Assembly (NCBI GenBank): GCA_000002445.1
Contig: CP000067.1
Coordinates: forward strand, 1,152,001 to 1,216,000
Direction: 5' to 3'
DNA length: 64,000 bases
Source: Trypanosoma brucei
Lineage: Eukaryota
Below the pieces are notes generated by a model that was not told where the DNA came from, searched no databases, and saw only the letters and a program-made list of their open reading frames with translations. Made by a program: the position numbers and the translations under genes. Below, in pieces: positions 24,001 to 48,116 of the stretch (positions are counted from its first letter, which is position 1; every line of letters starts with the position of its first letter).

Positions 24001-24752
24001 CTTTTCGTATCAGGGATTGGAGAGCCAAATACAATCACACCCTGAGGTCGAGTATTTGCAAACTTATTCCACTCTGCACTGAAGCTACTGTCATCCGATT
24101 CCTTACCAATTTGACTCTTCAATGCAAAAACACCGCACAGTTTGCGATCCATCCGTGTTGTCAATTCCACAGCAAGCTCATATTCATCATCACCATAAGA
24201 AACATCTTTCAAGTACATGAAACCCAGCCGATGTAACCGTAACTGAGTGATAGCATAACGGAGAAGAGCAAGCATCTCAGCAGCGGGTGATGCTGTCAGG
24301 AAGTACAGATTAGGATTCCAACTGCGTACCTTACTGGATCCTGTGAAGGGTGAGAAACTAATCACATTCTTTTCTTTGAAATATTTCAAGAGACCTAGAG
24401 TGTTTTTATCACCCACAGGTCCCAGTATAACAGGGAGTTCCTTACCATCATGGGTTGTCATGTGTTTCCCGATATAGTCAGCATATTTAGAATCATCCAT
24501 GGGCGGAACATATACCACTTCCACATTAGCACCTGACGGCGGGTTTCCGTTGGTAATGGATGCGTTGAAGCCTGCAATAATAGGATCATATATCTTTGCT
24601 GAAATCTTGTTACTGTATAACATGTTGTATACCTTCACCTGTATTTTATCATTTGCAAGTGATGATGCAGTCAGCACCTGTAGTAACAGAGAAAACACTA
24701 GGTAAGTGAATGCGCCATCTCTAACATACAATTCACGCATGAAGGTAACCAT
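21025..24752 (-). pseudogene. GRESAG4: receptor-type adenylate cyclase GRESAG4-like, array copy 2, interrupted by a 1-bp frameshift (N-terminal 439-aa ORF 23433-24752 and C-terminal 812-aa ORF 21025-23463)
   Basis: At 23463-23470 the plus strand reads cttcttatgtac where all other copies read cttcttcatgtac, so one C is missing. Upstream of this point the protein ends ...GGNVVYIRRWERISVCTL*. The remaining 812 codons (MGKDLRLYPM...) are intact but in the -1 frame. Everything else is co-linear with the other copies. It is either a genuine pseudogene or an assembly or sequencing error in a collapsed repeat. Confidence 0.8.
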
Positions 24753-33700: not shown

Positions 33701-34466
33701 GGAATTTCTTCGTATCATTGATTGGAGAGCCAAATACAATCACACCCTGAGGTCGAGTATTTGCAAACTTATCCCACTCCGCACTGAAGCTACTGTCATC
33801 CGATTCCTTACCAATTTGACTCTTCAATGCAAAAACACCGCACAGTTTGCGATCCATCCGTGTTGTCAATTCCACAGCAAGCTTATATTCATCATCACCA
33901 TAAGAAACATCTTTCAAGTACATGAAACCCAGCCGATGTAACCGTAACTGAGTGATAGCATAACGGAGAAGAGCAAGCATCTCAGCAGCGGGTGATGCTG
34001 TCAGGAAGTACAGATTAGGATTCCAACTGCGTACCTTACTGGATCCTGTGAAGGGTGAGAAACTAATCACATTCTTTTCTTTGAAATATTTCAAGAGACC
34101 TAGAGTGTTTTTATCACCCACAGGTCCCAGTATAACAGGGAGTTCCTCACCATTATTGTCGTTGCTAAAGGACGTTTCGCTATTTAAATGACCAACATAA
34201 TCTGAATCATTCTTCGGTGGAACATATACCACTTCCACATTAGCACCTGACGGCGGGTTCCCGTTGGTAATGGATGCGTTGAAGCCTGCAATAATAGGAT
34301 CATATATCTTTGCTGAAATCTTGTTACTGTATAACATGTTGTATACCTTCACCTGTATTTTATCATTTGCAAGTGATGATGCAGTCAGCACCTGTAGTAA
34401 CAGAGAAAACACTAGGTAAGTGACTGCGCCATCTCTAACATACAATTCACGCATGAAGGTAACCAT
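30723..34466 (-). CDS. GRESAG4: receptor-type adenylate cyclase GRESAG4-like, array copy 4, 1247 aa
   Basis: Full-length paralogue. It carries a unique patch with a 4-aa insertion near the N-terminus (VPPKNDSDYVGHLNSETSFSNDNNGEELPV), and the patches TKDIGEMLNKTLDYFFAS and PSMKYDEPKWIRLIYKHIAAVAVS next to the TM helix. Confidence 0.95.
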   Translation of the reverse strand: MVTFMRELYVRDGAVTYLVFSLLLQVLTASSLANDKIQVKVYNMLYSNKISAKIYDPIIAGFNASITNGNPPSGANVEVVYVPPKNDSDYVGHLNSETSFSNDNNGEELPVILGPVGDKNTLGLLKYFKEKNVISFSPFTGSSKVRSWNPNLYFLTASPAAEMLALLRYAITQLRLHRLGFMYLKDVSYGDDEYKLAVELTTRMDRKLCGVFALKSQIGKESDDSSFSAEWDKFANTRPQGVIVFGSPINDTKKFLMKSLEDERTKGGYLLIPSTLQYVIENKWEKELGRDRFVPDKIIITGTNPLAKDDGYDAIKRFKGDMAKYLKEKKDILSGTGQWNVNLNVDESNFTEQDTEAELMVDGWIAGEVLKQALSCREWLTSRDAFITSLYNQRRYVIDDIVVGDFGGECRGMAGERGASCLCNQGGNVVYMKKMGKDLRLYPMKEGVLALTSSRCYRDLSQLYAPLSGIMFKLTDDPKALRTAEAIYDGAFYVVGKGQLGHSDRFFLHWLSSKSHDTSTALYDEVEKRVVTAVFGVVDDSLLSTKGMAFIDPITLTPQLSNPRRNVIHLSPTLEQQLFVIVEHIIQNGAGKMHAIVRSGDTKDIGEMLNKTLDYFFASLSSFVASGEGSTLRDKLPTAGEVLVAGLISDDIPIILSHLGKHHNVRIFVPFFDVALLYDELVSAFRDKPFADRLLFATNLPHWGDKNTESDLVREFHRVVRDESKWKPLSLLGYVTARAMINVLQRMGHVTPEELVDAIFSQSVITVDDMRYGPFDDKCTNGASFEEKHCAVNYGATHISVWSMSRVLNPSVSPVVTHVTPSMKYDEPKWIRLIYKHIAAVAVSCVVVLALFVTVLVLVIRSSRRNARDNNNAPKEPTDPVTLIFTDIESSTAQWAAHPEQMPDLVATHHRLIRSLITRYECYEVKTVGDSFMIACKSPFAAAQLACDLQRDFLNHDWKTTELDESYREFERKRAEDDSDYTPPTASLDPEVYRQLWNGLRVRVGIHTGLCDIRHDEVTKGYDYYGRTSNMAARTESVGNGGQVLMTRSTYLSLSGKEREQINVTPLGDVPLRGVPKPVEMYQLNAVPGRTFAALRLDREFEEEEDNVTGSITSGSGSPERGLTATAQQVAGCIDALLGTFPATQRQKMLATFCERWRVKKPPGMDAWNEASCRCVTRRIAAKVGCVMDFGTRNTSGSVASFERGGSLFSPGGAAAIMLASSSSSSCVEGRCGTVQLIEQENVSAAS

Positions 34467-35585
34467 GATACTGGTAACTCAACGTAATCCAACGTGAAAA
34501 CTACAAGACAAAAAGGGAATAATAACAAAGTATTGGTACAGGATTAAGAGACTGCATATGTACAGATATGTTGGATTGTGACACAATAAGAGTCCATATG
34601 ATAATTGTATATAAGAGTGTAGGAAAGGGAACTATTATGATGGATAGCGTTATATAAACCATAACAGTGAGAAAGTAATTCAACATACATTCCCCTATAC
34701 ACACATCATTCATGTATCCGATACAAAAACAGAAAACATCACTAGGCACAAGAGTAAATGTGTAAATAGAGCATTATAATATCATAGACTGGATGCCAGT
34801 AATAAAAACAAAGCACACTAGCAGTCACAGTTAACATTCAACTGACAACAGCATGGCAGACATTGTTCAGTTTCATATTCCTTGGTTGTCTAAAGGTAAA
34901 ATAGAAAGAATGGGTCTGAGGGAATATGAGGAAAGTTACAATAAGCATATGAAAACATGCAGGAAGCTATGCACAGGTATTAGATGTTGTAAATAGTTGT
35001 CGGCAGCAGTTTCATTTGAGAAGTACCTCTCACAAGCCAAAATCTCCAAAGGAGAAATGTAAAAAGGGATTGAAGCAAACACGGAAAATAAACACCAGAT
35101 GATAGTTTTACTTCATGGCAACCCCCACTTCACGGGTTTCACCTTCTTATCGTACACATCTTTAGGTGTATGAACACAACTGATAACAACACATTAGAGG
35201 TAGAGAACCTCACTTGACCACAGCACACACAAACGGCAATTTAAGCTTATTGAACTAATAAATATATTATTTAAAAGAGTGAGATAATCAAAAGTGGTGT
35301 AGGTGCTCACATCCAATTCCACACCAAAAACAAGAAGATTTGCGATCTTCAAACACAGTTCTCAAAAGGAGATTACCCATGTCAGAAATAAGGAGCGCAT
35401 TAGTGCATGGAGGTGGTTAAAATCCACAACATATCACTTTATTACATGCACAACAAAAGGAAAGGTACAATGGATAGCCACTTTATACAAAATAAATCTA
35501 AAGAAAAGATTGCACACATGATGTAAAACAACTTATTCATTCACTTCAATAGCAAAGCGCACATATAGCAATGTTACGGGGAATA

Positions 35586-38500
35586 TTAGCTGGCAGCGCT
35601 AACATTTTCCAAGTCAATCAATTGTACGCCGCTACAATCACCTTCACCGCAGAAGGAACTTGAGGATGAAGCAAGCATTATAGCAGCTGCTCCTCCAGGT
35701 GAGAAGAGACTTCCGCCCCTTTCAAAAGATCCACCGCTACCAGAGGTATTTCTCGTTCCAAAATCCATAACACAACCCACCTTCGCAGCAATCCGACGAG
35801 TGACACAGCGGCAACTGGCTTCATTCCAAGCATCCATACCTGGGGGTTTCTTAACACGCCAACGCTCACAAAAAGTTGCAAGCATCTTCTGTCGCTGGGT
35901 AGCAGGGAATGTGCCAAGCAGAGCATCAATACAACCAGCAACTTGTTGGGCAGTGGCAGTTAAACCATGTGCGAAAGATCCCGACCCACTGGTGATACTA
36001 CCAGTTACATTATCTTCTTCCTCCTCAGCTTCACGGTCAAGGCGCAGAGCAGCAAAGGTACGGCCAGGTACAGCATTCAACTGGTACATTTCCACAGGCT
36101 TCGGCACACCACGTAGCGGCACATCACCCAAAGGCGTTACATTAAGTTGCTCACGCTCTTCACCACTCAGTGACAGGTATGTTGAGCGCGTCATCAGCAC
36201 CTGACCACCGTTACCAACACTCTCCGTGCGTGCTGCCATGTTGGATGTGCGTCCATAATAGTCGTAACCTTTCGTTACTTCATCATGACGAATATCACAC
36301 AATCCAGTATGAATCCCCACACGTACACGCAACCCATTCCACAGTTGCCGATAAACCTCAGGGTCCAGGCTCGCAGTTGGTGGTGTGTAATCACTGTCAT
36401 CTTCCGCACGCTTTCGTTCGAATTCACGGTAAGACTCATCAAGCTCAGTGGTCTTCCAGTCATGGTTTAGAAAATCACGTTGCAAGTCACATGCGAGTTG
36501 TGCAGCAGCGAAGGGACTTTTACACGCAATCATAAAAGAGTCTCCAACAGTTTTCACTTCGTAGCACTCATACCGTGTGATGAGGGAGCGGATCAAACGG
36601 TGATGTGTTGCCACAAGGTCAGGCATTTGCTCAGGGTGTGCTGCCCACTGCGCTGTACTGCTCTCGATATCAGTGAATATTAATGTTACGGGGTCTGTTG
36701 GTTCCTTGGGAGCATTATTATTGTCACGGGCGTTCCGGCGTGATGATCTTATGACAAGTACCAGAACCGTAACAAACAGTGCCAATACAACAGCGCAGCT
36801 GACTGCAATAGCAGCAATGTGTCCTCTCTTAAGTCGAAACCCTTCTGTGTCACCGTATTTCATCGAGGGTGTGACGTGAGTCACCACAGGAGACACGAAA
36901 GGATTCAGGACACGTGACATCGACCATACAGAAATATGCGTCGCACCATAGTTCACAGCACAGTGTTTCTCTTCAAATGAAGCTCCGTTAGTACACTTGT
37001 CATCAAAAGGACCATATCGCATATCATCAACTGTAATGACAGATTGGCTGAAGATGGCGTCTACAAGCTCCTCCGGCGTTACATGTCCCATACGTTGCAG
37101 GACATTTATCATTGCACGTGCGGTGACATATCCAAGTAATGACAATGGCTTCCACTTCGACTCATCTCGTACAACTCTGTGGAACTCACGTACCAAATCG
37201 GATTCCGTGTTCTTATCTCCCCAATGTGGCAGATTCGTTGCGAATAGCAGACGGTCAGCAAATGGCTTGTCACGGAAGGCACTCACAAGTTCATCATAGA
37301 GTAACGCAACATCAAAGAACGGGACAAAGATACGCACATTATGGTGTTTGCCAAGGTGAGAGAGGATTATGGGGATATCATCTGAGATGAGACCTGCAAC
37401 CAACACCTCACCTGCAGTCGGTAGCTTGTCTCTCAAAGTAGAACCTTCACCACTCGCAACAAAGGAGCTTAATGACGCGTTAAAGATATCAAGTGTTTTT
37501 TGCAACACTTTCCTAACTCCTCTCGTATCACCACTACGCACAATGGCATGCATCTTTCCTGCACCATTTTGTATGATATGCTCAACTATCACGAATAGTT
37601 GTTGCTCAAGTGTTGGTGACAGGTGGATCACATTCCTTCTGGGGTTACTCAGTTGTGGTGTGAGTGTTATAGGATCGATGAATGCCATACCCTTCGTCGA
37701 CAGTAACGAATCATCCACAACACCAAACACAGCAGTTACAACTCGCTTCTCCACTTCATCATACAGAGCTGTAGAAGTATCATGAGATTTCGAGGATAGC
37801 CAGTGTAAAAAGAATCTATCAGAGTGACCAAGTTGACCCTTTCCAACAACATAAAAGGCACCATCGTATATTGCCTCTGCAGTACGCAGTGCCTTTGGGT
37901 CATCAGTTAGTTTAAACATGATGCCACTCAATGGGGCGTACAGCTGTGACAGATCTCTATAGCAGCGAGATGAAGTAAGAGCTAATACACCTTCCTTCAT
38001 AGGGTACAGACGATGATCCTCTTCCATCTTCTTCATGTACACCACATTCCCACCCTGATTACATAAACATGATGCACCCCGCTCACCCGCCATACCACGG
38101 CACTCACCACCAAAGTCACCAACAACAATATCATCAATTACATAACGACGTTGATTGTAAAGTGATGTAATAAATGCATCCCTGCTAGTTAGCCATTCGC
38201 GACAACTCAGTGCTTGTTTCAATACCTCTCCAGCAATCCATCCACTCACCATCAGCTCACCTTCAGTGTCTTGCTCGGTGAAGTTGCTTTCGTCAACATT
38301 TAAGTTAACATTCCAATTATCTTTCGAAAAATTATTTCTGTTAAGTTTCAGGTACTTTGCCATATCATCCTTGGATCGTTTGATTGCATCATAGCCATCA
38401 TCCTTCGCAAGTGGATTAGTCCCAGTTATTATTATCTTATCAGGCACAAACCTGTCTCTACCCAATTCCTTTGCCCACTTATTCTCAATGACATATTGGA

Positions 38501-39317
38501 GTGTAGAGGGTATGAGCAAATATCCACCTTTTGTCCTTTCATCTTCTAATGATTTAATTAGGAATTTCTTCGTATCAGGGATTGGAGAGCCAAATACAAT
38601 CACACCCTGAGGTCGAGCATTTGCAAACTTATCCCACTCCGCACTGAAGCTACTGTCATCCGATTCCTTACCAATTTGACTCTTCAATGCAAAAACACCG
38701 CACAGTTTGCGATCCATCCGTGTTGTCAATTCCACAGCAAGCTTATATTCATCATCACCATAAGAAACATCTTTCAAGTACATGAAACCCAGCCGATGTA
38801 ACCGTAACTGAGTGATAGCATAACGGAGAAGAGCAAGCATCTCAGCAGCGGGTGATGCTGTCAGGAAGTACAGATTAGGATTCCAACTGCGTACCTTACT
38901 GGATCCTGTGAAGGGTGAGAAACTAGTCACATTCTTTTCTTTGAAATATTTCAAGAGACCTAGAGTGTTTTTATCACCCACAGGTCCCAGTATAACAGGG
39001 AGTTCCTTACCATCATGGGTTGTCATGTGTTTCCCGAGATAGTCAGCATATTTAGAATCATCCATGGTTGGAACATATACCACTTCCACATTAGCACCTG
39101 ACGGCGGGTTTCCGTTGGTAATGGATGCGTTGAAGCCTGCAATAATAGGATCATATATCTTTGCTGAAATCTTGTTACTGTATAACATGTTGTATACCTT
39201 CACCTGTATTTTATCATTTGCAAGTGATGATGCAGTCAGCACCTGTAGTAACAGAGAAAACACTAGGTAAGTGACTGCGCCATCTCTAACATACAATTCA
39301 CGCATGAAGGTAACCAT
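35586..39317 (-). CDS. GRESAG4: receptor-type adenylate cyclase GRESAG4-like, array copy 5, 1243 aa
   Basis: Full-length paralogue with the same domain order. Variant patches include KKMEEDHRLYPM (also found in copy 6) and LDREAEEEEDN. Confidence 0.95.
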   Translation of the reverse strand: MVTFMRELYVRDGAVTYLVFSLLLQVLTASSLANDKIQVKVYNMLYSNKISAKIYDPIIAGFNASITNGNPPSGANVEVVYVPTMDDSKYADYLGKHMTTHDGKELPVILGPVGDKNTLGLLKYFKEKNVTSFSPFTGSSKVRSWNPNLYFLTASPAAEMLALLRYAITQLRLHRLGFMYLKDVSYGDDEYKLAVELTTRMDRKLCGVFALKSQIGKESDDSSFSAEWDKFANARPQGVIVFGSPIPDTKKFLIKSLEDERTKGGYLLIPSTLQYVIENKWAKELGRDRFVPDKIIITGTNPLAKDDGYDAIKRSKDDMAKYLKLNRNNFSKDNWNVNLNVDESNFTEQDTEGELMVSGWIAGEVLKQALSCREWLTSRDAFITSLYNQRRYVIDDIVVGDFGGECRGMAGERGASCLCNQGGNVVYMKKMEEDHRLYPMKEGVLALTSSRCYRDLSQLYAPLSGIMFKLTDDPKALRTAEAIYDGAFYVVGKGQLGHSDRFFLHWLSSKSHDTSTALYDEVEKRVVTAVFGVVDDSLLSTKGMAFIDPITLTPQLSNPRRNVIHLSPTLEQQLFVIVEHIIQNGAGKMHAIVRSGDTRGVRKVLQKTLDIFNASLSSFVASGEGSTLRDKLPTAGEVLVAGLISDDIPIILSHLGKHHNVRIFVPFFDVALLYDELVSAFRDKPFADRLLFATNLPHWGDKNTESDLVREFHRVVRDESKWKPLSLLGYVTARAMINVLQRMGHVTPEELVDAIFSQSVITVDDMRYGPFDDKCTNGASFEEKHCAVNYGATHISVWSMSRVLNPFVSPVVTHVTPSMKYGDTEGFRLKRGHIAAIAVSCAVVLALFVTVLVLVIRSSRRNARDNNNAPKEPTDPVTLIFTDIESSTAQWAAHPEQMPDLVATHHRLIRSLITRYECYEVKTVGDSFMIACKSPFAAAQLACDLQRDFLNHDWKTTELDESYREFERKRAEDDSDYTPPTASLDPEVYRQLWNGLRVRVGIHTGLCDIRHDEVTKGYDYYGRTSNMAARTESVGNGGQVLMTRSTYLSLSGEEREQLNVTPLGDVPLRGVPKPVEMYQLNAVPGRTFAALRLDREAEEEEDNVTGSITSGSGSFAHGLTATAQQVAGCIDALLGTFPATQRQKMLATFCERWRVKKPPGMDAWNEASCRCVTRRIAAKVGCVMDFGTRNTSGSGGSFERGGSLFSPGGAAAIMLASSSSSFCGEGDCSGVQLIDLENVSAAS

Positions 39318-39875
39318 GATACTGGTAACTCAACGTAATCCAACGTGAAAACTACAAGACAAAAAGGGAATAATAACAAAGTATTGGTACAGGATTAAGA
39401 GACTGCATATGTACAGATATGTTGGATTGTGACACAATAAGAGTCCATATGATAATTGTATATAAGAGTGTAGGAAAGGGAACTATTATAATGGATAGCG
39501 TTATATAAACCATAACAGTGAGAAAGTAATTCAACACACATTTCCCTATACACACATCATTCATGTATCCGATACAAAAACATAAAACATCACTAGGCAC
39601 AAGAGTAAATGTGTAAATAGAGCATTATAATATCATAGACTGGATGCCAGTAACAAAAACAAAGCACACTAGCAGTCACAGTTAACATTCAACTGGCAAC
39701 AGCATGGGAGACATTGTTCAGTTTCATATTCCTTGGTTGTCTAAAGGTAAAAGAGAAAGAATGGGTGTGAGGGAATATGAGGAAAGTTACAATAAGCATA
39801 TGGAAACATGCAGGAAGCGATGCACAGGTATTAGATGTTGCTAGTATTTGTCTCCAACAATATGATGTCGATATT

Positions 39876-42800
39876 TCAACTATTTTTTCCATTGTCCCCG
39901 AGAGATGTGCCAAATAATGGTTCACGTGAATCAAATTTCTCCAAGGTGCCGTTAAACATATTAATATCTATTGTACTACAAGAGTATATCGAAAAGTCGA
40001 ATTTGTCAGTCGGTGACATACATAGGTATTCTTTTACTTCCATCGGTGTGTGAAAGCGAACGGAAGGTAGTGGATGCTGCCGTCCTAACTGGCTAACATC
40101 GCAAATGCTATGAGATAAAGCAAATGAACTTCTTTCCGTTGATAAAGCTGTACCTGTGCTATTACGTATAACGACATTCATAATTGGTCCAGCTCTTACT
40201 GCAATGTGATGCACAGCGAGCCGGAATGTTGCCTTATCCCACCTATTCTTCACACTTTTAGGTGGAGGGACACGCCAGCGTTCACAAATAGATGTGAGCA
40301 TCCTCTGTCGCTGGGTAGCAGGGAGTGTGCCAAGTACAGTCTCAAGGGACTGTGCAACATGCAACGAGGAACCACATAACTCATGTGTAGAAGAGCAGAT
40401 ATCGCTTACATCAGTAAATATTCCTTCACTTTCTTCATTTTCCTCATCCTCAACGTCACGGTCAAGGCGCAGAGCAGCAAAGGTACGGCCAGGTACAGCA
40501 TTCAACTGGTACATTTCCACAGGCTTCGGCACACCACGTAGCGGCACATCACCCAAAGGCGTTACATTAATTTGCTCACGCTCTTTACCACTCAGTGACA
40601 GGTATGTTGAGCGCGTCATCAGCACCTGACCACCGTTACCAACACTCTCCGTGCGTGCTGCCATGTTGGATGTGCGTCCATAATAGTCGTAACCTTTCGT
40701 TACTTCATCATGACGAATATCACACAATCCAGTATGAATCCCCACACGTACACGCAACCCATTCCACAGTTGCCGATAAACCTCAGGGTCCAGGCTCGCA
40801 GTTGGTGGTGTGTAATCACTGTCATCTTCCGCACGCTTTCGTTCGAATTCACGGTAAGACTCATCAAGCTCAGTGGTCTTCCAGTCATGGTTTAGAAAAT
40901 CACGTTGCAAGTCACATGCGAGTTGTGCAGCAGCGAAGGGACTTTTACACGCAATCATAAAAGAGTCTCCAACAGTTTTCACTTCGTAGCACTCATACCG
41001 TGTGATGAGGGAGCGGATCAAACGGTGATGTGTTGCCACAAGGTCAGGCATTTGCTCAGGGTGTGCTGCCCACTGCGCTGTACTGCTCTCGATATCAGTG
41101 AATATTAATGTTACGGGGTCTGTTGGTTCCTTGGGAGCATTATTATTGTCACGGGCGTTCCGGCGTGATGATCTTATGACAAGTAACAGAACCGTAACAA
41201 ACAGTGCCAATACAACAACGCAGCTGACTGCAATAGCAGCAATGTGTCCTCTCTTAAGTCGAAACCATTTAGCGTAACCATCCATCATCAATGGTGTGAC
41301 GTGAGTCACCACAGGAGACACGGAAGGATTCAGAACACGTGACATCGACCATACAGAAATATGCGTCGCACCATAGTTCACAGCACAGTGTTTCTCTTCA
41401 AATGAAGCTCCGTTAGTACACTTGTCATCAAAAGGACCATATCGCATATCATCAACTGTAATGACAGATTGGCTGAAGATGGCGTCTACAAGGTCCTCCG
41501 GCGTTACATGTCCCATACGTTGCAGGACATTTATCATTGCACGTGCGGTGACATATCCAAGTAATGACAATGGCTTCCACTTCGACTCATTCTGTACAAC
41601 TCTGTGGAACTCACGTACCAAATCGGATTCCGTGTTCTTATCTCCCCAATGTGGCAGATTCGTTGCGAATAGCAGACGGTCAGCAAATGGCTTGTCACGG
41701 AAGGCACTCACAAGTTCATCATAGAGTAACGCAACATCAAAGAACGGGACAAAGATACGCACATTATGGTGTTTGCCAAGGTGAGAGAGGATTATGGGGA
41801 TATCATCTGAGATGAGACCTGCAACTAATACCTCACCTGCAGTCGGTAGCTTGTCTCTCAAAGTAGAACCTTCACCACTCGCAACAAAGGAGCTTAATGA
41901 CGATTCAAAGAAGTCAAGTGTTTTGTTCAGCATCTCTCCAATATCTTTCGTATCACCACTACGCACAATGGCATGCATCTTTCCAGCACCATTTTGTATG
42001 ATATGCTCAACTATCACGAATAGTTGTTGCTCAAGTGTTGGTGACAGGTGGATCACATTCCTTCTGGGGTTACTCAGTTGTGGTGTGAGTGTTATGGGAT
42101 CGATGAATGCCATACCCTTCGTCGACAGTAACGAATCATCCACAACACCAAACACAGCAGTTACAACTCGCTTCTCCACTTCATCATACAGAGCTGTAGA
42201 AGTATCATGAGATTTCGAGGATAGCCAGTGTAAAAAGAATCTATCAGAGTGACCAAGTTGACCCTTTCCAACAACATAAAAGGCACCATCGTATATTGCC
42301 TCTGCAGTACGCAGTGCCTTTGGGTCATCAGTTAGTTTAAACATGATGCCACTCAATGGGGCGTACAGCTGTGACAGGTCTCTATAGCAGCGAGATGAAG
42401 TAAGAGCTAATACACCTTCCTTCATAGGGTACAGACGATGATCCTCTTCCATCTTCTTCATGTACACCACATTCCCACCCTGATTACATAAACATGATGC
42501 ACCCCGCTCACCCGCCATACCACGGCACTCACCACCAAAGTCACCAACAACAATATCATCAATTACATAACGACGTTGATTGTAAAGTGATGTAATAAAT
42601 GCATCCCTGCTAGTTAGCCATTCGCGACAACTCAGTGCCTGTTTCAATACCTCTCCAGCAATCCATCCACTCACCATCAGCTCACCTTCAGTGTCTTGCT
42701 CGGTGAAGTTGTTTTCGTTAGCATTTAGGGTAACATTCCAATTATCTTTCGAAAAATTATTTCCGTTTACCTTTAGGAAGTTAGCTAGTTCACCCCTAAA

Positions 42801-43742
42801 ACGTTTGATTGCATCATAGCCATCATCCTTCGCAAGTGGATTAGTCCCAGTTATTATTATCTTACCAGGCACAAACCTGTCTCTACCCAATTCTTCTGAC
42901 CACTTGTTCTTGATGACATATTGGAGTGTAGAGGGTATGAGCAAATATCCACCTTTTGTCCTTTCATCTTCTAATGATTTAATTAGGAATTTCTTCGTAT
43001 CAGGGATTGGAGAGCCAAATACAATCACACCCTGAGGTCGAGTATTTGCAAACTTATTCCACTCCGCACTGAAGCTACTGTCATCCGATTCCTTTTCAAT
43101 TTGACTCTTCAATGCAAAAACACCGCACAGTTTGCGATCCATCCGTGTTGTCAATTCCACAGCAAGCTTATATTCATCATCACCATAAGAGACATCTTTC
43201 AAGTACATGAAACCCAGCCGATGTAACCGTAACTGAGTGATAGCATAACGGAGAAGAGCAAGCATCTCAGCAGCGGGTGATGCTGTCAGGAAGTACAGAT
43301 TAGGATTCCAACTGCGTACTTTACTGGATCCTGTGAAGGGTGAGAAACTAGTCACATTCTTTTCTTTGAAATATTTCAAGAGACCTAGAGTATTTTGGTC
43401 ACCCACAGGTCCCAGTATAATAGATATTTTATTGTTTTCGCCAAATGATGTTTCGTTATTCAGAAAGTCAGCATATTTAGAATCATCCATGGGGGGAACA
43501 TATACCACTTCCACATTAGCACCTGACGGCGGGTTTCCGTTGGTAATGGATGCGTTGAAGCCTGCAATAATAGGATCATATATCTTTGCTGAAATCTTGT
43601 TACTGTATAACATGTTGTATACCTTCACCTGTATTTTATCATTTGCAAGTGATGATGCAGTCAGCACCTGTAGTAACAGAGAAAACACTACGTAAGTGAC
43701 TGCGCCATCCCTAACATACAATTCACGCATGAAGGTAACCAT
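39876..43742 (-). CDS. GRESAG4: receptor-type adenylate cyclase GRESAG4-like, array copy 6, 1288 aa, with an alternative, longer C-terminal tail
   Basis: It is identical in plan to copies 1-5 through the cyclase domain. After ...ALRLDR (nt about 40455) it diverges into a tail of about 195 aa: DVEDEENEESEGIFTDVSDICSSTHELCGSS...LGTLPATQRQRMLTSICERWRVPPPKSVKNRW...FGTSLGDNGKNS. This tail is only about 50% identical to the standard tail, and the stop lies about 560 bp closer to the next gene. Confidence 0.93.
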   Translation of the reverse strand: MVTFMRELYVRDGAVTYVVFSLLLQVLTASSLANDKIQVKVYNMLYSNKISAKIYDPIIAGFNASITNGNPPSGANVEVVYVPPMDDSKYADFLNNETSFGENNKISIILGPVGDQNTLGLLKYFKEKNVTSFSPFTGSSKVRSWNPNLYFLTASPAAEMLALLRYAITQLRLHRLGFMYLKDVSYGDDEYKLAVELTTRMDRKLCGVFALKSQIEKESDDSSFSAEWNKFANTRPQGVIVFGSPIPDTKKFLIKSLEDERTKGGYLLIPSTLQYVIKNKWSEELGRDRFVPGKIIITGTNPLAKDDGYDAIKRFRGELANFLKVNGNNFSKDNWNVTLNANENNFTEQDTEGELMVSGWIAGEVLKQALSCREWLTSRDAFITSLYNQRRYVIDDIVVGDFGGECRGMAGERGASCLCNQGGNVVYMKKMEEDHRLYPMKEGVLALTSSRCYRDLSQLYAPLSGIMFKLTDDPKALRTAEAIYDGAFYVVGKGQLGHSDRFFLHWLSSKSHDTSTALYDEVEKRVVTAVFGVVDDSLLSTKGMAFIDPITLTPQLSNPRRNVIHLSPTLEQQLFVIVEHIIQNGAGKMHAIVRSGDTKDIGEMLNKTLDFFESSLSSFVASGEGSTLRDKLPTAGEVLVAGLISDDIPIILSHLGKHHNVRIFVPFFDVALLYDELVSAFRDKPFADRLLFATNLPHWGDKNTESDLVREFHRVVQNESKWKPLSLLGYVTARAMINVLQRMGHVTPEDLVDAIFSQSVITVDDMRYGPFDDKCTNGASFEEKHCAVNYGATHISVWSMSRVLNPSVSPVVTHVTPLMMDGYAKWFRLKRGHIAAIAVSCVVVLALFVTVLLLVIRSSRRNARDNNNAPKEPTDPVTLIFTDIESSTAQWAAHPEQMPDLVATHHRLIRSLITRYECYEVKTVGDSFMIACKSPFAAAQLACDLQRDFLNHDWKTTELDESYREFERKRAEDDSDYTPPTASLDPEVYRQLWNGLRVRVGIHTGLCDIRHDEVTKGYDYYGRTSNMAARTESVGNGGQVLMTRSTYLSLSGKEREQINVTPLGDVPLRGVPKPVEMYQLNAVPGRTFAALRLDRDVEDEENEESEGIFTDVSDICSSTHELCGSSLHVAQSLETVLGTLPATQRQRMLTSICERWRVPPPKSVKNRWDKATFRLAVHHIAVRAGPIMNVVIRNSTGTALSTERSSFALSHSICDVSQLGRQHPLPSVRFHTPMEVKEYLCMSPTDKFDFSIYSCSTIDINMFNGTLEKFDSREPLFGTSLGDNGKNS

Positions 43743-44300
43743 GATACTGGTAACTCAACGTAATCCAACGTGAAAACTACAAGACAAAAAGGGAATAATA
43801 ACAAAGTATTGGTACAGGATTAAGAGACTGCATATGTACAGATATGTTGGATTGTGACACAATAAGAGTCCATATGATAATTGTATATAAGAGTGTAGGA
43901 AAGGGAACTATTATAATGGATAGCGTTATATAAACCATAACAGTGAGAAAGTAATTCAACACACATTTCCCTATACACACATCATTCATGTATCCGATAC
44001 AAAAACATAAAACATCACTAGGCACAAGAGTAAATGTGTAAATAGAGCATTATAATATCATAGACTGGATGCCAGTAACAAAAACAAAGCACACTAGCAG
44101 TCACAGTTAACATTCAACTGGCAACAGCATGGGAGACATTGTTCAGTTTCATATTCCTTGGTTGTCTAAAGGTAAAAGAGAAAGAATGGGTGTGAGGGAA
44201 TATGAGGAAAGTTACAATAAGCATATGGAAACATGCAGGAAGCGATGCACAGGTATTAGATGTTGCTAGTATTTGTCTCCAACAATATGATGTCGATATT

Positions 44301-47300
44301 TCAACTATTTTTTCCATTGTCCCCGAGAGATGTGCCAAATAATGGTTCACGTGAATCAAATTTCTCCAAGGTGCCGTTAAACATATTAATATCTATTGTA
44401 CTACAAGAGTATATCGAAAAGTCGAATTTGTCAGTCGGTGACATACATAGGTATTCTGTTACTTCCATCGGTGCTTCAATTCGAACGGAAGGTAGTGGAT
44501 GCTGCCGTCCTAACTGGCTAACATCGCAAATGCTATGAGATGGAGGACACGGCTTTCTTTCCGCGCATACTGCTGCAGCTGCGGCATTGCGTATATTGAC
44601 ACTCATTACCGGCCCAGCTCTTACTGCAATATGACGTATAACGAGCCGGAATGTTGCTTTATCCCACCTATTCTTCACACTTTTAGGTGGAGGGACACGC
44701 CAGCGTTCACAAATAGATGTGAGCATCCTCTGTCGCTGGGTAGCAGGGAGAGTACTAAAAACAGTGTCAAGGGACTGTGCAACATGCAACGAGGAACCAC
44801 ATAACTCATGTGTAGAAGAGCAAATATCGCTTACATCAGTAAATATTCCTTCACTTTCTTTGCCTTCCTCCTCAGCTTCACGGTCAAGGCGCAGAGCAGC
44901 AAAGGTACGGCCAGGTACAGCATTCAACTGGTACATTTCCACAGGCTTCGGCACACCACGTAGCGGCACATCACCCAAAGGCGTTACATTAATTTGCTCA
45001 CGTTCCAAAGTACTTAGTGCATGATACGCCGCAAGGGTCATCAGCACCTGACCACCGTTACCAACACTCTCCGTGCGTGCTGCCATGTTGGATGTGCGTC
45101 CATAATAGTCGTAACCTTTCGTTACTTCATCATGACGAATATCACACAATCCAGTATGAATCCCCACACGTACACGCAACCCATTCCACAGTTGCCGATA
45201 AACCTCAGGGTCCAGGCTCGCAGTTGGTGGTGTGTAATCACTGTCATCTTCCGCACGCTTTCGTTCGAATTCACGGTAAGACTCATCAAGCTCAGTGGTC
45301 TTCCAGTCATGGTTTAGAAAATCACGTTGCAAGTCACATGCGAGTTGTGCAGCAGCGAAGGGACTTTTACACGCAATCATAAAAGAGTCTCCAACAGTTT
45401 TCACTTCGTAGCACTCATACCGTGTGATGAGGGAGCGGATCAAACGGTGATGTGTTGCCACAAGGTCAGGCATTTGCTCAGGGTGTGCTGCCCACTGCGC
45501 TGTACTGCTCTCGATGTCAGTGAATATTAATGTTACGGGGTCTGTTGGTTCCTTGGGAGCATTATTATTGTCACGGGCGTTCCGGCGTGATGATCTTATG
45601 ACAAGTACCAGAACCGTAACAAACAGTGCCAATACAACAGCGCAGCTGACTGCAATAGCAGCAATGTGTCCCGTCTTCATTGTGGGTCCGCTGTTTTCAT
45701 TTTTTAACATTGCAGGAGTGACCTGAGTCACCACAAGAGACACGGAAGGATTCAGAACACGTGACATCGACCATACAGAAATATGCGTCGCACCATAGTT
45801 CACAGCACAGTGTTTCTCTTCAAATGAAGCTCCGTTAGTACACTTGTCATCAAAAGGACCATATCGCATATCATCAACTGTAATGACAGATTGGCTGAAG
45901 ATGGCGTCTACAAGCTCCTCCGGTGTTACATGTCCCATACGTTGCAGGACATTTATCATTGCACGTGCGGTGACATATCCAAGTAATGACAATGGCTTCC
46001 ACTTCGACTCATTCTGTACAACTCTGTGGAACTCACGTACCAAATCGGATTCCGTGTTCTTATCTCCCCAATGTGGCAGATTCGTTGCGAATAGCAGACG
46101 GTCAGCAAATGGCTTGTCACGGAAGGCACTCACAAGTTCATCATAGAGTAACGCAACATCAAAGAACGGGACAAAGATACGCACATTATGGTGTTTGCCA
46201 AGGTGAGAGAGGATTATGGGGATATCATCTGAGATGAGACCTGCAACCAACACCTCACCTGCAGTCGGTAGCTTGTCTCTCAAAGTAGAACCTTCACCAC
46301 TCGCAACAAAGGAGCTTAATGACGCGTTAAAGATATCAAGCGTTTTTTGCAACACTTTCCTAACTCCTCTCGTATCACCACTACGCACAATGGCATGCAT
46401 CTTTCCTGTACCATTTTGTATGATATGCTCAACTATCACGAATAGTTGTTGCTCAAGTGTTGGTGACAGGTGGATCACATTCCTTCTGGGGTTACTCAGT
46501 TGTGGTGTGAGTGTTATAGGATCGATGAATGCCATACCCTTCGTCGACAGTAACGAATCATCCACAACACCAAACACAGCAGTTACAACTCGCTTCTCCA
46601 CTTCATCATACAGAGCTGTGGAAGTATCATGAGATTTCGAGGATAGCCAGTGTAAAAAGAATCTATCAGAGTGACCAAGTTGACCCTTTCCAACAACATA
46701 AAAGGCACCATCGTATATTGCCTCTGCAGTACGCAGTGCCTTTGGGTCATCAGTTAGTTTAAACATGATGCCACTCAATGGGGCGTACAGCTGTGACAGG
46801 TCTCGATAACAGCGAGATGAAGTAAGAGTTAATACACCTTCCTTCATAGGATGTAGACGGAGATCCTTTCCCATCTTCTTCATGTACACCACATTCCCAC
46901 CCTGATTGCATAAACATGATGCACCCCGCTCACCCGCCATACCACGGCACTCACCACCAAAGTCACCAACAACAATATCATCAATTACATAACGACGTTG
47001 ATTGTAAAGTGATGTAATAAATGCATCCCTGCTAGTTAGCCATTCGGTGTATGTGACCGTCTGTTTCAATACCTCTCCAGCAATCCATCCACTCACCATC
47101 AGCTCAGCTTCAGTGTCTTGCTCGGTGAAGTTGCTTTCGTCAACATTTAAGTTAACATTCCAATGTCCGGTGCCACTCAGAATATCTTTCTTTTCCTTCA
47201 GGTACTTTGCCATATCACCCCTAAAACGTTTGATTGCATCATAGCCATCATCCTTCGCAAGTGGATTAGTCCCAGTTATTATTATCTTATCAGGCACAAA

Positions 47301-48116
47301 CCTGTCTCTACCCAATTCCTTTGCCCACTTGTTCTTGATGACATATTGGAGTGTAGAGGGTATGAGCAAATATCCGCCTCTCGTCCTGCGGTCATCTAAT
47401 GATTTCATTAGAAATCTTTTCGTATCAGGGATTGGAGAGCCAAATACAATCACACCCTGAGGTCGAGTATTTGCAAACTTATTCCACTCTGCACTGAAGC
47501 TACTGTCATCCGATTCCTTACCAATTTGACTCTTCAATGCAAAAACACCACAGAATTTGCGATCCATCCGTGTTGTCAATTCCACAGCAAGCTCATATTC
47601 ATCATCACCATAAGAAACATCTTTCAAGTACATGAAACCCAGCCGATGTAACCGTAACTGAGTGATAGCATAACGGAGAAGAGCAAGCATCTCAGCAGCG
47701 GGTGATGCTGTCAGGAAGTACAGATTAGGATTCCAACTGCGTACTTTACTGGATCCTGTGAAGGGTGAGAAACTAGTCACATTCTTTTCTTTGAAATATT
47801 TCAAGAGACCTAGAGTGTTTTTATCACCCACAGGTCCCAGTATAACAGGGAGTTCCTCACCATCATGGGTTGTCATGTGTTTCTCGAGATAGTCAGCATA
47901 TTTAGAATCATCCATGGGTGGAACATATACCACTTTCACATTAGCACCTAAATGGGACCTTCCGTTGGTAATGGATGCGTTGAAGCCTGCAGTAATAGGA
48001 TCATATATCTTTGCTGAAATCTTGTTACTGTATAACATGTTGTATATATTTACATTAATCTGTGCTGCTGATGCTGTTGTGTGGAAGAGTAATGGCAGTA
48101 GAAGTAATTTAAGCAT
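44301..48116 (-). CDS. GRESAG4: receptor-type adenylate cyclase GRESAG4-like, array copy 7 (first in transcription order), 1271 aa, with a distinct signal peptide and the alternative C-terminal tail
   Basis: The N-terminus is MLKLLLLPLLFHTTASAAQINVNIYNMLYSNKISAKIYDPI..., a different signal peptide that joins the family frame at NMLYSNKISAKIYDP. The sequence upstream of 48060 is unique. The C-terminal tail is the same type as copy 6, diverging after LRLDREAEEEGKESEGIFTDVSD at about 44865. The cyclase motifs are intact, but there is a unique patch VLMTLAAYHALSTLEREQINV. Confidence 0.92.
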   Translation of the reverse strand: MLKLLLLPLLFHTTASAAQINVNIYNMLYSNKISAKIYDPITAGFNASITNGRSHLGANVKVVYVPPMDDSKYADYLEKHMTTHDGEELPVILGPVGDKNTLGLLKYFKEKNVTSFSPFTGSSKVRSWNPNLYFLTASPAAEMLALLRYAITQLRLHRLGFMYLKDVSYGDDEYELAVELTTRMDRKFCGVFALKSQIGKESDDSSFSAEWNKFANTRPQGVIVFGSPIPDTKRFLMKSLDDRRTRGGYLLIPSTLQYVIKNKWAKELGRDRFVPDKIIITGTNPLAKDDGYDAIKRFRGDMAKYLKEKKDILSGTGHWNVNLNVDESNFTEQDTEAELMVSGWIAGEVLKQTVTYTEWLTSRDAFITSLYNQRRYVIDDIVVGDFGGECRGMAGERGASCLCNQGGNVVYMKKMGKDLRLHPMKEGVLTLTSSRCYRDLSQLYAPLSGIMFKLTDDPKALRTAEAIYDGAFYVVGKGQLGHSDRFFLHWLSSKSHDTSTALYDEVEKRVVTAVFGVVDDSLLSTKGMAFIDPITLTPQLSNPRRNVIHLSPTLEQQLFVIVEHIIQNGTGKMHAIVRSGDTRGVRKVLQKTLDIFNASLSSFVASGEGSTLRDKLPTAGEVLVAGLISDDIPIILSHLGKHHNVRIFVPFFDVALLYDELVSAFRDKPFADRLLFATNLPHWGDKNTESDLVREFHRVVQNESKWKPLSLLGYVTARAMINVLQRMGHVTPEELVDAIFSQSVITVDDMRYGPFDDKCTNGASFEEKHCAVNYGATHISVWSMSRVLNPSVSLVVTQVTPAMLKNENSGPTMKTGHIAAIAVSCAVVLALFVTVLVLVIRSSRRNARDNNNAPKEPTDPVTLIFTDIESSTAQWAAHPEQMPDLVATHHRLIRSLITRYECYEVKTVGDSFMIACKSPFAAAQLACDLQRDFLNHDWKTTELDESYREFERKRAEDDSDYTPPTASLDPEVYRQLWNGLRVRVGIHTGLCDIRHDEVTKGYDYYGRTSNMAARTESVGNGGQVLMTLAAYHALSTLEREQINVTPLGDVPLRGVPKPVEMYQLNAVPGRTFAALRLDREAEEEGKESEGIFTDVSDICSSTHELCGSSLHVAQSLDTVFSTLPATQRQRMLTSICERWRVPPPKSVKNRWDKATFRLVIRHIAVRAGPVMSVNIRNAAAAAVCAERKPCPPSHSICDVSQLGRQHPLPSVRIEAPMEVTEYLCMSPTDKFDFSIYSCSTIDINMFNGTLEKFDSREPLFGTSLGDNGKNS

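What the first reader, a model, noticed from the sequence alone, without database searches (positions are those of the whole stretch)
39876..40455. Copies 6 and 7 are chimeras: standard ectodomain and cyclase fused to a diverged, longer C-terminal tail and a truncated spacer
Immediately after the catalytic domain (ALRLDR), copies 6 (39876-40455) and 7 (44301-44865) switch to a tail of about 195 aa. It reads ...EGIFTDVSDICSSTHELCGSSLHVAQSL[E/D]TV..TLPATQRQRMLTSICERWRVPPPKSVKNRWDKATFRL...DINMFNGTLEKFDSREPLFGTSLGDNGKNS. This tail is homologous to the standard tail of copies 1-5 (...GSITSGSGS...LGTFPATQRQKMLATFCERWRVKKPPGMDAWNEASCRCV..., about 150 aa) but only about 50% identical to it. It looks like the tail of a different ESAG4/GRESAG4 subfamily grafted on by recombination, with a sharp junction in otherwise near-identical sequence. 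The downstream spacer is correspondingly cut to 559 bp, and about 190 bp of new sequence (39689-39875 and 44114-44300) replaces part of the common spacer. The cytosolic C-terminal tail is the region thought to mediate regulation and localisation in this family. Two tail types in one array is therefore functionally suggestive. The breakpoint also marks an old recombination event, or a different origin for the promoter-proximal end of the array.
Basis: seen in the sequence. Interest (0 to 1): 0.6.

Follow-up and report, generated by a model that had tools for sequence, protein, structure and literature searches.

The report
Tail-swapped adenylate cyclase gene copies
Two of the seven tandem receptor adenylate cyclase genes on Trypanosoma brucei chromosome 4 carry a different, older C-terminal tail bounded by sharp recombination junctions, but this isoform (very likely the published GRESAG4.4B) and the mosaic nature of this array are already described, so the finding is real but ordinary.

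Summary
The window is T. b. brucei TREU927 chromosome 4. It holds the seven-gene GRESAG4.4 array, which I assign to Tb927.4.4410-4470 by accession order.

The main observation holds.
- Copies 6 and 7 match the other copies up to the last catalytic-domain codon (…ALRLDR).
- They then switch abruptly to a 193/192-aa tail (B) in place of the 148-149-aa tail (A).
- Their downstream spacer is 558 bp instead of 1116-1119 bp.

Two details are wrong.
- The tails are 39% identical over a 106-aa core (33% overall), not about 50%.
- The "190 bp of new spacer" is not new. Only about 35 bp after the stop codon is B-specific, and the rest is 96% identical to the common spacer.

The unit is a discrete 0.62-kb cassette that replaces a 1.04-kb one (A tail plus 596 nt of 3'UTR). 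Tail A groups with the chromosome-8 paralogue and a T. congolense tail; tail B lies outside that group. No donor locus was found.

The B tail is present in T. b. gambiense, T. b. equiperdum and a clone deposited around 2000 (AAF69135), so it is not a misassembly. Its position and copy number differ between strains. Published work already documents recombination mosaics in this array. Any functional difference between the tails is untested.

The parts
39876..43742 (-). Copy 6: receptor-type adenylate cyclase with tail B1 (XP_844595.1). It is Tb927.4.4460 by accession order.
   Evidence: ORF of 1288 aa. Exact match to XP_844595.1. Pfam finds a periplasmic-binding-protein-like ectodomain plus Guanylate_cyc.
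44301..48116 (-). Copy 7: the first gene of the array in the direction of transcription, with tail B2 (XP_844596.1). It is Tb927.4.4470 by accession order. It has its own N-terminus, MLKLLLL….
   Evidence: ORF of 1271 aa. Exact match to XP_844596.1.
40458..40475 (-). Last six codons of the catalytic domain (ALRLDR) in copy 6. The 5' junction lies immediately 3' of position 40458.
   Evidence: All seven copies are identical up to …CTTGACCGT. The crystallised catalytic domains 1FX2 and 1FX4 end at this motif. Coordinates.
40374..40457 (-). Tail B1, acidic and Ser-rich linker, predicted disordered.
   Evidence: AlphaFold2 pLDDT is about 31 for model residues 234-261.
40149..40373 (-). Tail B1, conserved three-helix core (…LGTLPATQRQRML..CERWRV…IAVRAG…). 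This core is shared by all trypanosome receptor cyclases examined.
   Evidence: Helices at model residues 265-278, 283-296 and 311-339, with block-mean pLDDT mostly 76-90 (one 10-residue block at 65). Core alignment with 21 tails. BLASTP against tail A gives E = 3e-24.
40270..40345 (-). The only stretch of the B cassette that aligns with the A cassette at the DNA level (84%). It may be a micro-conversion patch.
   Evidence: blastn. All 10 residues shared by A and B1 across LGT.PATQRQ.M use identical codons.
39879..40148 (-). Tail B1, B-specific distal 90 codons. No relative was found outside this gene cluster. Predicted disordered.
   Evidence: No match in the search of 1.84 billion representative proteins. 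pLDDT 23-32. The frame is stop-free in only 61 of 20000 shuffles, and the other two frames have 3 and 9 stops.
39841..39875 (-). B-specific 3' flank, about 35 nt after the stop codon (39876-39878).
   Evidence: Pairwise alignments. Fixed A/B differences end here, plus one about 24 nt further on.
39318..39840 (-). Spacer shared with the 3' half of the 1.1-kb spacers. It carries two polypyrimidine-AG tracts upstream of copy 5's ATG.
   Evidence: 96-100% identical to copy 5 positions 34467-34989. Sequence read.
44304..44879 (-). Tail B2 of copy 7. The first 16 nt are still A-type, and the B-specific sequence starts near 44863.
43743..44300 (-). Spacer after copy 7. About 35 nt are B-specific (44266-44300) and 43743-44265 is shared spacer.
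45006..45035 (-). Catalytic-domain patch LAAYHALSTL (the other copies have RSTYLSLSG(E/K)E). It travels with the B2 tail in four independent sequences.
34990..36032 (-). The A cassette of copy 5, for comparison: tail A (35589-36032), stop codon, and 596 nt of A-specific 3'UTR (34990-35585) that B units lack.
   Evidence: The same block is present after copies 1-4.
16174..39317 (-). The five A-type copies: c1 16174-19908, c2 21025-24752 (frameshifted), c3 25872-29603, c4 30723-34466, c5 35586-39317.

Best explanation
The window is the GRESAG4.4 tandem array of receptor-type adenylate cyclases on T. b. brucei TREU927 chromosome 4.

Copies 6 and 7 are the isoform very probably published as GRESAG4.4B. 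Their ectodomain, transmembrane helix and class III cyclase domain are the same as in the five A-type copies. They differ by a discrete cassette of about 0.62 kb (193-codon tail, stop codon, about 35 nt). This sits where the A-type copies have a 1.04-kb cassette (148-codon tail plus 596 nt of 3'UTR).

Shown:
- Everything flanking the cassette is kept nearly identical across copies by gene conversion and unequal crossing-over.
- The 5' boundary is the end of the catalytic domain.
- The cassette itself has only a 76-bp island that can be aligned with the A cassette.

Inferred: the cassette is too diverged to be converted.

The B tail lineage is old. It lies outside the clade formed by tail A, the chromosome-8 paralogue and a T. 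congolense tail.

My preferred reading (inferred, probability about 0.5) is that B is the remnant of a once more diverged array member, whose body has been overwritten by the more numerous A copies. The alternative is an ectopic import of the tail (about 0.3).

The cassette is reassorted between array positions in different strains.

Inferred function: both tails keep the family-wide three-helix core. The differences lie in the linker, the helix surfaces, the disordered distal segment (about 45 aa in A, 90 aa in B) and the 3'UTR. Any functional difference would therefore concern regulation, sub-flagellar targeting or mRNA control. It would not concern sensing or catalysis.

The confidence of 0.8 applies to the structural and evolutionary account (a recombination-bounded cassette in a concerted-evolution array, already known as an isoform), not to the choice between overwritten old member and import, nor to any functional difference.
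For: - Identity of the locus and proteins.
- Domain architecture.
- Sharp 5' junction with identical upstream sequence.
- Sharp 3' junction about 35 nt after the stop codon.
- Only a 76-bp island aligns between the cassettes.
- The array is a mosaic of incongruent patches. Published recombination tests on this array give PHI p<0.001, 11 LRT breakpoints and at least 4 GARD breakpoints (PMC2854126).
- Tail A groups with the chromosome-8 and T. congolense tails, and B lies outside.
- Synonymous divergence between A and B is about 1.0-1.3, against about 1.0 between A and chromosome 8.
- The start of the A 3'UTR still aligns with the chromosome-8 unit.
- Alleles B1 and B2 are each conserved between TREU927 and DAL972, and T. 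b. equiperdum carries a B1/B2 recombinant.
- The body of copy 7 occurs with tail A in DAL972 and with tail B in TREU927 and T. b. equiperdum.
- A B2-linked patch inside the catalytic domain (45006-45035) suggests that a longer diverged tract once existed.
- Three-helix core and disordered distal part.
Against: - The direction of the event is not resolved, and no donor or outgroup gene with a B-like tail was found.
- The searchable protein sets collapse or omit most full-length T. brucei cyclases. A donor elsewhere in the genome therefore cannot be excluded.
- The DAL972 array contains a 100-N gap inside its second copy, so its copy order is less certain.
- Only three downstream copies of the chromosome-8 array could be inspected.
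- Bootstrap support for the A/chromosome-8/T. congolense clade is only 69% on 70 columns.
- There is no evidence here of a functional difference. RNA-seq levels of all seven genes are alike.
Confidence: 0.8

Rival explanations
1. Ectopic graft. A tail from a different ESAG4/GRESAG4 subfamily was copied onto an A-type gene by one non-allelic conversion event. It was then duplicated to give copies 6 and 7.
For: - Both junctions are sharp, and the cassette is small and discrete.
- Tail B lies outside the A/chromosome-8/T. congolense tail clade.
- All three inspected copies of the chromosome-8 array have A-like tails.
Against: - No donor was found. The best tails outside the cluster are 40% identical (a T. 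congolense fragment). T. brucei ESAG4, chromosome-10 and chromosome-5 representatives are 33-35% identical. The distal 90 aa match nothing.
- A second B-linked patch sits 220 bp upstream, inside the catalytic domain of copy 7. A single tail-only graft does not explain it.
Confidence: 0.3
2. In-situ rapid divergence. Tail B arose from tail A inside the array after the chromosome 4/8 duplication, through relaxed or positive selection.
For: - Tails are the most variable part of the cytosolic region in this family (PMC6027212).
- dN/dS within the B tails is 0.64 and within the A tails 0.41-0.55.
Against: - Synonymous divergence between A and B is saturated (about 1.0-1.3) and at least as large as that between A and chromosome 8.
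- DNA cannot be aligned outside a 76-bp island.
- B falls outside the A/chromosome-8/T. congolense clade.
- The 3'UTR differs too, by 596 nt.
Confidence: 0.05
3. Assembly artefact. The alternative tail results from a misjoin in a collapsed repeat.
For: Tandem arrays are prone to misassembly. The DAL972 array has a gap.
Against: - Two B copies in the window differ at 8% of positions.
- The same cassette, with the same 3' junction, is present in DAL972 and in T. b. equiperdum.
- It is also present in the separately deposited gene AAF69135.1.
Confidence: 0.01
4. Frameshift or read-through. The longer tail is tail A read in another frame, or read into the 3'UTR, so that copies 6 and 7 are decaying genes.
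For: Copy 2 of the same array is frameshifted.
Against: - Neither tail A nor tail B is detectable in the A 3'UTR by tblastn, and the cassettes show no nucleotide similarity outside the island.
- The B reading frame and stop codon are conserved in all five genomic B copies, and the deposited AAF69135 protein ends at the same C-terminus.
- The distal 90 codons are stop-free in only 0.3% of shuffles.
Confidence: 0.01

Closest known systems
GRESAG4.4B (Naula, Schaub, Leech, Melville and Seebeck 2001, Mol Biochem Parasitol 112:19; protein AAF69135.1 / Q9NHA3)
   Same: AAF69135.1 is 93% identical to both copy 6 and copy 7 and carries the B tail to the same C-terminus (…GTSLGDNGKNS). It also has the LAAYHALSTL patch. 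It falls in the same 90% cluster as copies 6 and 7.
   Different: It comes from another strain or clone, and its tail is a B2/B1 mosaic. That this accession is the published GRESAG4.4B is my inference from the name, authorship style and date. The paper could not be read.
Mosaic tandem gene arrays of T. brucei, array 28 'Adenylate cyclase GRESAG4, Tb927.4.4470' (Jackson 2007, PMC1855330; Jackson et al. 2010, PMC2854126)
   Same: It is the same array. The papers report seven copies in both T. b. brucei and T. b. gambiense, five shared isoforms and significant recombination (PHI p<0.001, 11 LRT and at least 4 GARD breakpoints). My patch map shows the same reticulate pattern.
   Different: The passages I could read do not single out the tail cassette or its linked 3'UTR, and do not mention its relation to the chromosome-8 tails.
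Paralogous GRESAG4 array on chromosome 8 (Tb927.8.7860 onward; chromosome 4/8 duplicon, Jackson 2007, PMC2212663)
   Same: It has the same flanking genes (V-PPase 1 and the Tb927.4.4400/Tb927.8.7950 pair), and its tails are A-like.
   Different: No B-like tail was seen in the three copies inspected. Its spacers carry a 264-bp relic of the junction between the catalytic-domain end and the tail start.
C-terminal targeting in procyclic adenylate cyclases (Saada et al. 2014, as cited in PMC8141408 and PMC6027212)
   Same: The cited work concerns the same protein family and the same region downstream of the cyclase domain. Deleting the last 45 aa of AC1 sends it to the cytoplasm.
   Different: This has not been tested for GRESAG4.4 tails. 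ESAG4 lacking its last 107-112 residues still reaches the flagellum and still binds CARP3. The role of the tail is therefore not general.

Membership tests
Trypanosomatid receptor-type adenylate cyclase (ESAG4/GRESAG4) | Large periplasmic-binding-protein-like ectodomain | tested here: met
   PF25493 (E = 8e-141), PF25495 and PF13458 match copy 6, and copy 5 gives the same result.
Trypanosomatid receptor-type adenylate cyclase (ESAG4/GRESAG4) | Single transmembrane helix between the ectodomain and the cyclase domain | tested here: met
   By inspection only. The hydrophobic stretch IAAIAVSCVVVLALFVTVLLLVI is followed by RSSRRNARD. No transmembrane predictor was run.
Trypanosomatid receptor-type adenylate cyclase (ESAG4/GRESAG4) | Class III cyclase catalytic domain | tested here: met
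   PF00211, E = 5e-43. Match to 1FX4 (GRESAG4.3) at E = 1e-123 and to 1FX2 (GRESAG4.1) at E = 4e-122.
Trypanosomatid receptor-type adenylate cyclase (ESAG4/GRESAG4) | Conserved tail core (LLGTF..QR.K.L..CERWRV…IA.KVG) | tested here: met
   The core is present in both tail A and tail B and in 15 tails from other trypanosome species and loci. It is predicted as three helices.
GRESAG4.4 array, T. b. brucei TREU927 chromosome 4 | Proteins identical to the deposited TREU927 proteins, and annotated as GRESAG 4.4 | tested here: met
   Exact matches to XP_844591-XP_844596 on a 1,590,432-bp contig. 'Adenylyl cyclase (GRESAG 4.4)' is given for Tb927.4.4410 and 4430-4470, and 4420 is listed as a pseudogene. 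The mapping of individual gene IDs to copies is my inference from accession order.
GRESAG4.4B isoform | Same tail as the cloned gene | tested here: met
   AAF69135.1 has the B tail and is 93% identical overall.
GRESAG4.4B isoform | AAF69135.1 is the sequence published under that name | not testable with these tools
   Naula et al. 2001 is not held in the library.
Gene-conversion mosaic in a tandem array | Incongruent groupings of copies along the unit | tested here: met
   Patch patterns change from window to window, for example c7=c5=c2=c1, then c7=c6=c2=c1, then c7..c4 against c3..c1.
Gene-conversion mosaic in a tandem array | Sharp tract boundaries with identical flanks | tested here: met
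Gene-conversion mosaic in a tandem array | Reassortment of the tract between strains | tested here: met
   Order of tail types by strain: TREU927 is B,B,A,A,A,A,A. DAL972 is A,B,B,A,A over the five copies fetched. T. b. equiperdum is B,A,A over the three copies fetched. T. b. equiperdum also carries a B1/B2 recombinant.
Gene-conversion mosaic in a tandem array | Formal recombination tests (PHI, GARD) | not tested
   Not run here. Published for this array in PMC2854126, Table 2.
Ectopic graft from another GRESAG4 subfamily | A donor locus with a B-like tail on a different gene body | tested here: inconclusive
   None was found. However, the searchable sets omit or collapse most full-length T. 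brucei cyclases.
Tail-encoded flagellar or tip targeting signal | The distal tail is required for localisation | not testable with these tools
   This needs tagging experiments. The literature is mixed.

The most novel reading that the evidence does not exclude
The two tail-plus-3'UTR cassettes are a selectively maintained dimorphism. It is older than the split between T. b. brucei and T. b. gambiense, and the B lineage is older than the chromosome 4/8 duplication. Recombination at the catalytic-domain boundary shuffles the cassettes against ectodomain variants. As a result, the same extracellular sensor can be wired to two different cytosolic outputs, localisations or mRNA fates.
Probability: 0.25. 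Interest if true: 0.5.

Novelty: already known. Interest (0 to 1): 0.25.

Why it matters
The array offers a natural tail-swap experiment. Copies 4, 5 and 6 have identical catalytic domains and nearly identical ectodomains, but unrelated distal tails and different 3'UTRs.

If the tail governs sub-flagellar localisation, phospho-regulation or stability, comparing the A and B isoforms would isolate that effect without any engineering.

As a piece of genome biology it is a textbook case of concerted evolution stopping at a block of non-homology. That is already the accepted picture for T. brucei tandem arrays.

Tried and rejected
1. Searching for a donor with the 193-aa tail in the word-indexed protein database found nothing. 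A second search with the catalytic domain plus tail returned only proteins shorter than 750 aa. Full-length trypanosome cyclases therefore seem not to be indexed, and the empty result says little.
2. An exhaustive HMMER search of 1.84 billion cluster representatives gave 11 hits. All match only the conserved core, at 40% identity or less, and none matches the distal 90 aa. Clustering at 50% hides paralogues, so a donor is not excluded.
3. I tested whether the A-specific 3'UTR is a decayed copy of tail B or tail A, or whether tail B is tail A in another frame. There is no similarity by blastn or tblastn.
4. I tried to walk up the chromosome-8 array to look for B-like tails in its first copies.
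5. Naula 2001, Saada 2014 and the supplements of Durante 2020 are not held.
6. I looked for differential expression of A and B units. The RNA-seq table shows similar values: the 'Up in St over EA' ratio (stumpy over early procyclic, on my reading of the sheet name) is 2.1-2.4 for Tb927.4.4460 and 4470, and 2.7-3.0 for the A copies. Near-identical coding regions make these per-gene numbers unreliable.
Full report
WHAT THE WINDOW IS

The twelve long ORFs all lie on the minus strand. Seven of them are receptor-type adenylate cyclases in tandem:
- c1 16174-19908
- c2 21025-24752
- c3 25872-29603
- c4 30723-34466
- c5 35586-39317
- c6 39876-43742
- c7 44301-48116

An exact-sequence look-up identifies them as XP_844591-XP_844596 of Trypanosoma brucei brucei TREU927, on a contig of 1,590,432 bp. 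The neighbouring V-type pyrophosphatase is XP_844588. A published RNA-seq table lists Tb927.4.4410 and 4430-4470 as 'adenylyl cyclase (GRESAG 4.4)' and Tb927.4.4420 as a pseudogene. That fits c2, which is split into two overlapping ORFs. Assigning c6 to Tb927.4.4460 and c7 to Tb927.4.4470 is my inference from the order of accessions. Transcription runs from high to low coordinates, so c7 is the first copy.

CHECK OF THE OBSERVATION

I aligned the seven repeat units. Copy 6 is 97-100% identical to copy 5 over most of the gene, with a few variable patches. Identity falls abruptly to about 50% at window position 40457. The base-level alignment shows all seven copies identical up to …CTTGACCGT, which encodes the last residues (L-D-R) of ALRLDR. 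They diverge from the next base on. Copy 6 has no mismatch to copy 4 in the 729 bp upstream of the junction.

After ALRLDR the tails measure 193 aa (c6) and 192 aa (c7), against 148-149 aa in c1, c3, c4 and c5. The spacers are 558 bp after c6 and c7 and 1116-1119 bp elsewhere.

Two details do not.
- Tail identity is lower than stated. BLASTP gives 39% over 106 residues (E = 3e-24), and the distal parts do not align. Identity over all aligned columns is 33%. At the DNA level only a 76-bp island (40270-40345, coding LGTLPATQRQRML…CERWRV) aligns, at 84%.
- The supposed 190 bp of 'new' spacer is not new. Positions 39689-39840 are 146/152 identical to the common spacer, and only about 35 nt after the stop codon are B-specific. 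Across twelve units from three strains, differences fixed between A and B units stop within about 40 nt of that point.

The real unit of difference is therefore a cassette. In c6 it spans 40457-39841 (617 bp). In c5 the corresponding block spans 36032-34990 (1043 bp) and consists of tail A plus 596 nt of 3'UTR.

WHERE THE JUNCTION LIES IN THE PROTEIN

Pfam finds the periplasmic-binding-protein-like ectodomain and the class III cyclase domain in both types, and no family for either tail. The crystallised catalytic domains of GRESAG4.1 and GRESAG4.3 (1FX2, 1FX4) end at …ALRLDR(EY). The 5' junction is therefore the structural end of the catalytic domain.

An AlphaFold2 model of the catalytic domain plus tail B shows four regions:
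- a confident cyclase fold;
- a disordered acidic and Ser-rich linker;
- three helices, with block-mean pLDDT mostly 76-90 (one block at 65), covering the conserved core;
- a low-confidence distal 90 residues. The alignment is shallow there, so 'disordered' is tentative.

The core motif (LLGTF..QR.K.L..CERWRV…IA.KVG) is present in the tails of cyclases from T. congolense, T. vivax, T. cruzi marinkellei, T. rangeli and T. conorhini, and in other T. brucei loci. Both tails are thus ordinary members of the family's tail domain.

The B-specific distal 90 codons look coding. The frame is stop-free in only 61 of 20000 shuffles, and the other two frames have 3 and 9 stops. The frame and stop codon are conserved in every B copy seen.

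NOT AN ARTEFACT, AND NOT NEW

The 90% cluster that holds c6 and c7 also contains the following:
- T. b. gambiense DAL972 CBH10756 (1289 aa) and two fragments;
- T. b. equiperdum RHW72897 (1272 aa);
- AAF69135.1 / Q9NHA3, 'adenylyl cyclase [Trypanosoma brucei]', 1290 aa.

All carry the B tail. AAF69135.1 is 93% identical to both c6 and c7. It is very probably the GRESAG4.4B of Naula et al. 2001, but I could not read that paper.

The array itself is array 28 in Jackson's surveys of T. brucei tandem arrays. They report seven copies in both subspecies, five shared isoforms, PHI p<0.001, 11 LRT breakpoints and at least 4 GARD breakpoints (PMC2854126; PMC1855330). My own patch map shows the same reticulation, with groupings of the seven copies changing from one 60-column window to the next.

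STRAIN COMPARISON

I fetched the orthologous loci and located every tail.
- TREU927: B2, B1, then A five times.
- DAL972: the first copy has the same MLKLLLL N-terminus as c7 but carries tail A and a 1117-bp spacer. The second copy (interrupted by a 100-N gap) has B2 and the third has B1. The two further copies fetched have A tails.
- T. b. equiperdum: the first copy has a B tail, and the two further copies fetched have A tails.

At base level, c6 is nearly identical to DAL972 copy 3, and c7's cassette to DAL972 copy 2. The T. b. equiperdum B tail is a recombinant, with a B1 junction, a B2 middle and a B1 end.

A sliding comparison shows where TREU927 c7 changes partner. It follows DAL972 copy 1 through the 5' flank and body. 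From shortly upstream of the LAAYHALSTL patch onward, DAL972 copy 1 follows the A-type copies instead, while c7 matches DAL972 copy 2 through to the end of the unit. This is the signature of unequal crossing-over within the array.

The two B alleles therefore predate the brucei/gambiense split. The cassette is not tied to the promoter-proximal position.

HOW OLD IS B, AND WHERE DID IT COME FROM?

The region belongs to the chromosome 4/8 duplicon, in which Tb927.4.4470 pairs with Tb927.8.7860 (PMC2212663). I recovered the downstream end of the chromosome-8 array from T. b. equiperdum. Its tails are A-like (…AAQQVVACVEALLGAFPTAQRKKLL..FCNRWGV…LLAAKVGRVVDFGTKNT).

Identities over the 70-column core:
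- A against chromosome 8: 54%
- A against a T. congolense tail (P0039): 55%
- B against A: 41-43%
- B against chromosome 8: 30%
- B against anything else: 31-40%

In a neighbour-joining tree, A, chromosome 8 and P0039 group together with 69% bootstrap support, and B sits alone on a long branch. Synonymous divergence between the A and B cores is about 1.0-1.3, against about 1.0 between A and chromosome 8. The start of the A 3'UTR still aligns weakly with the chromosome-8 unit. B is therefore not a recent offshoot of A.

Searches for a donor found nothing closer. The best is a T. congolense fragment at 40% identity. T. brucei ESAG4 and the chromosome-10 and chromosome-5 representatives are at 33-35%. 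Nothing matches the distal 90 aa. These searches cannot see most T. brucei paralogues, so a donor is not excluded.

One observation favours an old array member that was overwritten by conversion over a tail-only graft. Copy 7 keeps a second non-A patch (LAAYHALSTL, 45006-45035) inside the catalytic domain, 220 bp upstream of the junction. This patch accompanies the B2 tail in TREU927, DAL972, T. b. equiperdum and AAF69135.

Conversely, the 76-bp island shows A and B1 using identical codons for all ten shared residues across LGT.PATQRQ.M, whereas B2 reads FST at the first three. This hints at a micro-conversion between tail types at the only place where they can pair.

FUNCTION

Nothing here shows a functional difference. 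The sensing and catalytic parts of A and B copies are the same. The differences lie in the linker, the helix surfaces, the distal disordered segment and the 3'UTR.

The literature on the tail is mixed.
- Removal of the last 45 aa of AC1 sends it to the cytoplasm.
- ESAG4 lacking its last 107-112 residues still reaches the flagellum and still binds CARP3, which needs the catalytic domain.
- Tb927.4.4460, tagged at its C-terminus, gave only a weak signal in procyclic forms, but the tagging replaced the 3'UTR.
- RNA-seq values for all seven genes are similar, although reads cannot be assigned reliably among near-identical copies.

The shared spacer holds the polypyrimidine-AG tracts that presumably serve the downstream gene. 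I therefore infer that B-type mRNAs have a short 3'UTR with about 35 B-specific nucleotides, and that A-type mRNAs carry an extra 596 nt. This is inference, not observation.

VERDICT

The isoform and the mosaic nature of the array are already in the literature and in the databases. The finding is a clean example of concerted evolution halted at a block of non-homology. Its modest residual interest is as a natural tail-swap experiment.

Noticed in passing
window 21025-24752 (overlap of the two ORFs at 23433-23463): Copy 2 is split into an 812-aa and a 439-aa ORF by a frameshift. It is listed as 'Tb927.4.4420 adenylyl cyclase, pseudogene' in a published table, yet its RNA-seq values are like those of its neighbours.
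   Followed up: partly
window 45006-45035: Copy 7 encodes LAAYHALSTL in the catalytic domain where the other copies have RSTYLSLSG(E/K)E. The patch accompanies the B2 tail in four independent sequences. Its 'AAY' resembles GRESAG4.1 and GRESAG4.3 (HAAYMSLS).
   Followed up: partly
window 40270-40345: This is a 76-bp island of 84% identity between otherwise unalignable A and B cassettes. A and B1 share identical codons for all ten shared residues, and B2 differs (FST for LGT). It may be a micro-conversion between tail types.
   Followed up: partly
L005 7184-7447 against 5898-6161 (T. b. equiperdum chromosome 8): The spacer examined in the paralogous chromosome-8 array contains a 264-bp, 97% identical relic of the junction between the catalytic-domain end and the tail start. 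A second copy of the same relic tail ORF appears in the upstream spacer. The same domain boundary has therefore been a recombination point there too.
   Followed up: partly
window 9944-15178: A 1744-aa ORF lies immediately downstream of the array. It is Tb927.4.4400 by accession order, and its paralogue flanks the chromosome-8 array. Tb927.4.4400 is reported in the AC1 flagellar-tip proximity proteome (PMC8141408, Table 2). A tip-associated protein thus sits next to the cyclase arrays in both duplicons.
   Followed up: no
window about 48017-48116 and upstream: The first ~100 bp of copy 7's coding sequence (signal peptide MLKLLLLPLLFHTTASAAQ…) and the sequence upstream of it are unrelated to the other copies. 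This marks the upstream edge of the array. At the other edge, the 3'UTR of copy 1 is the most diverged of the A type (84%, 15581-16173), and its spacer leaves the repeat further downstream.
   Followed up: partly
L001 (DAL972) 1621-10000, with a gap at 8283-8382: The DAL972 array starts with a copy-7-like body carrying tail A. Its second copy is interrupted by 100 N. Relative to it, TREU927 copy 7 looks like a crossover product of copies 1 and 2.
   Followed up: partly
window 40057-40157 and 39990-40010 (c6 against c7): The two B alleles differ mainly in one hypervariable patch (…AVHHIAVRAGPIMNVVIRNSTGTALSTERSSFAL… against …VIRHIAVRAGPVMSVNIRNAAAAAVCAERKPCPP…) and at FHTPMEVK against IEAPMEVT. 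dN/dS for the whole tail is 0.64.
   Followed up: partly
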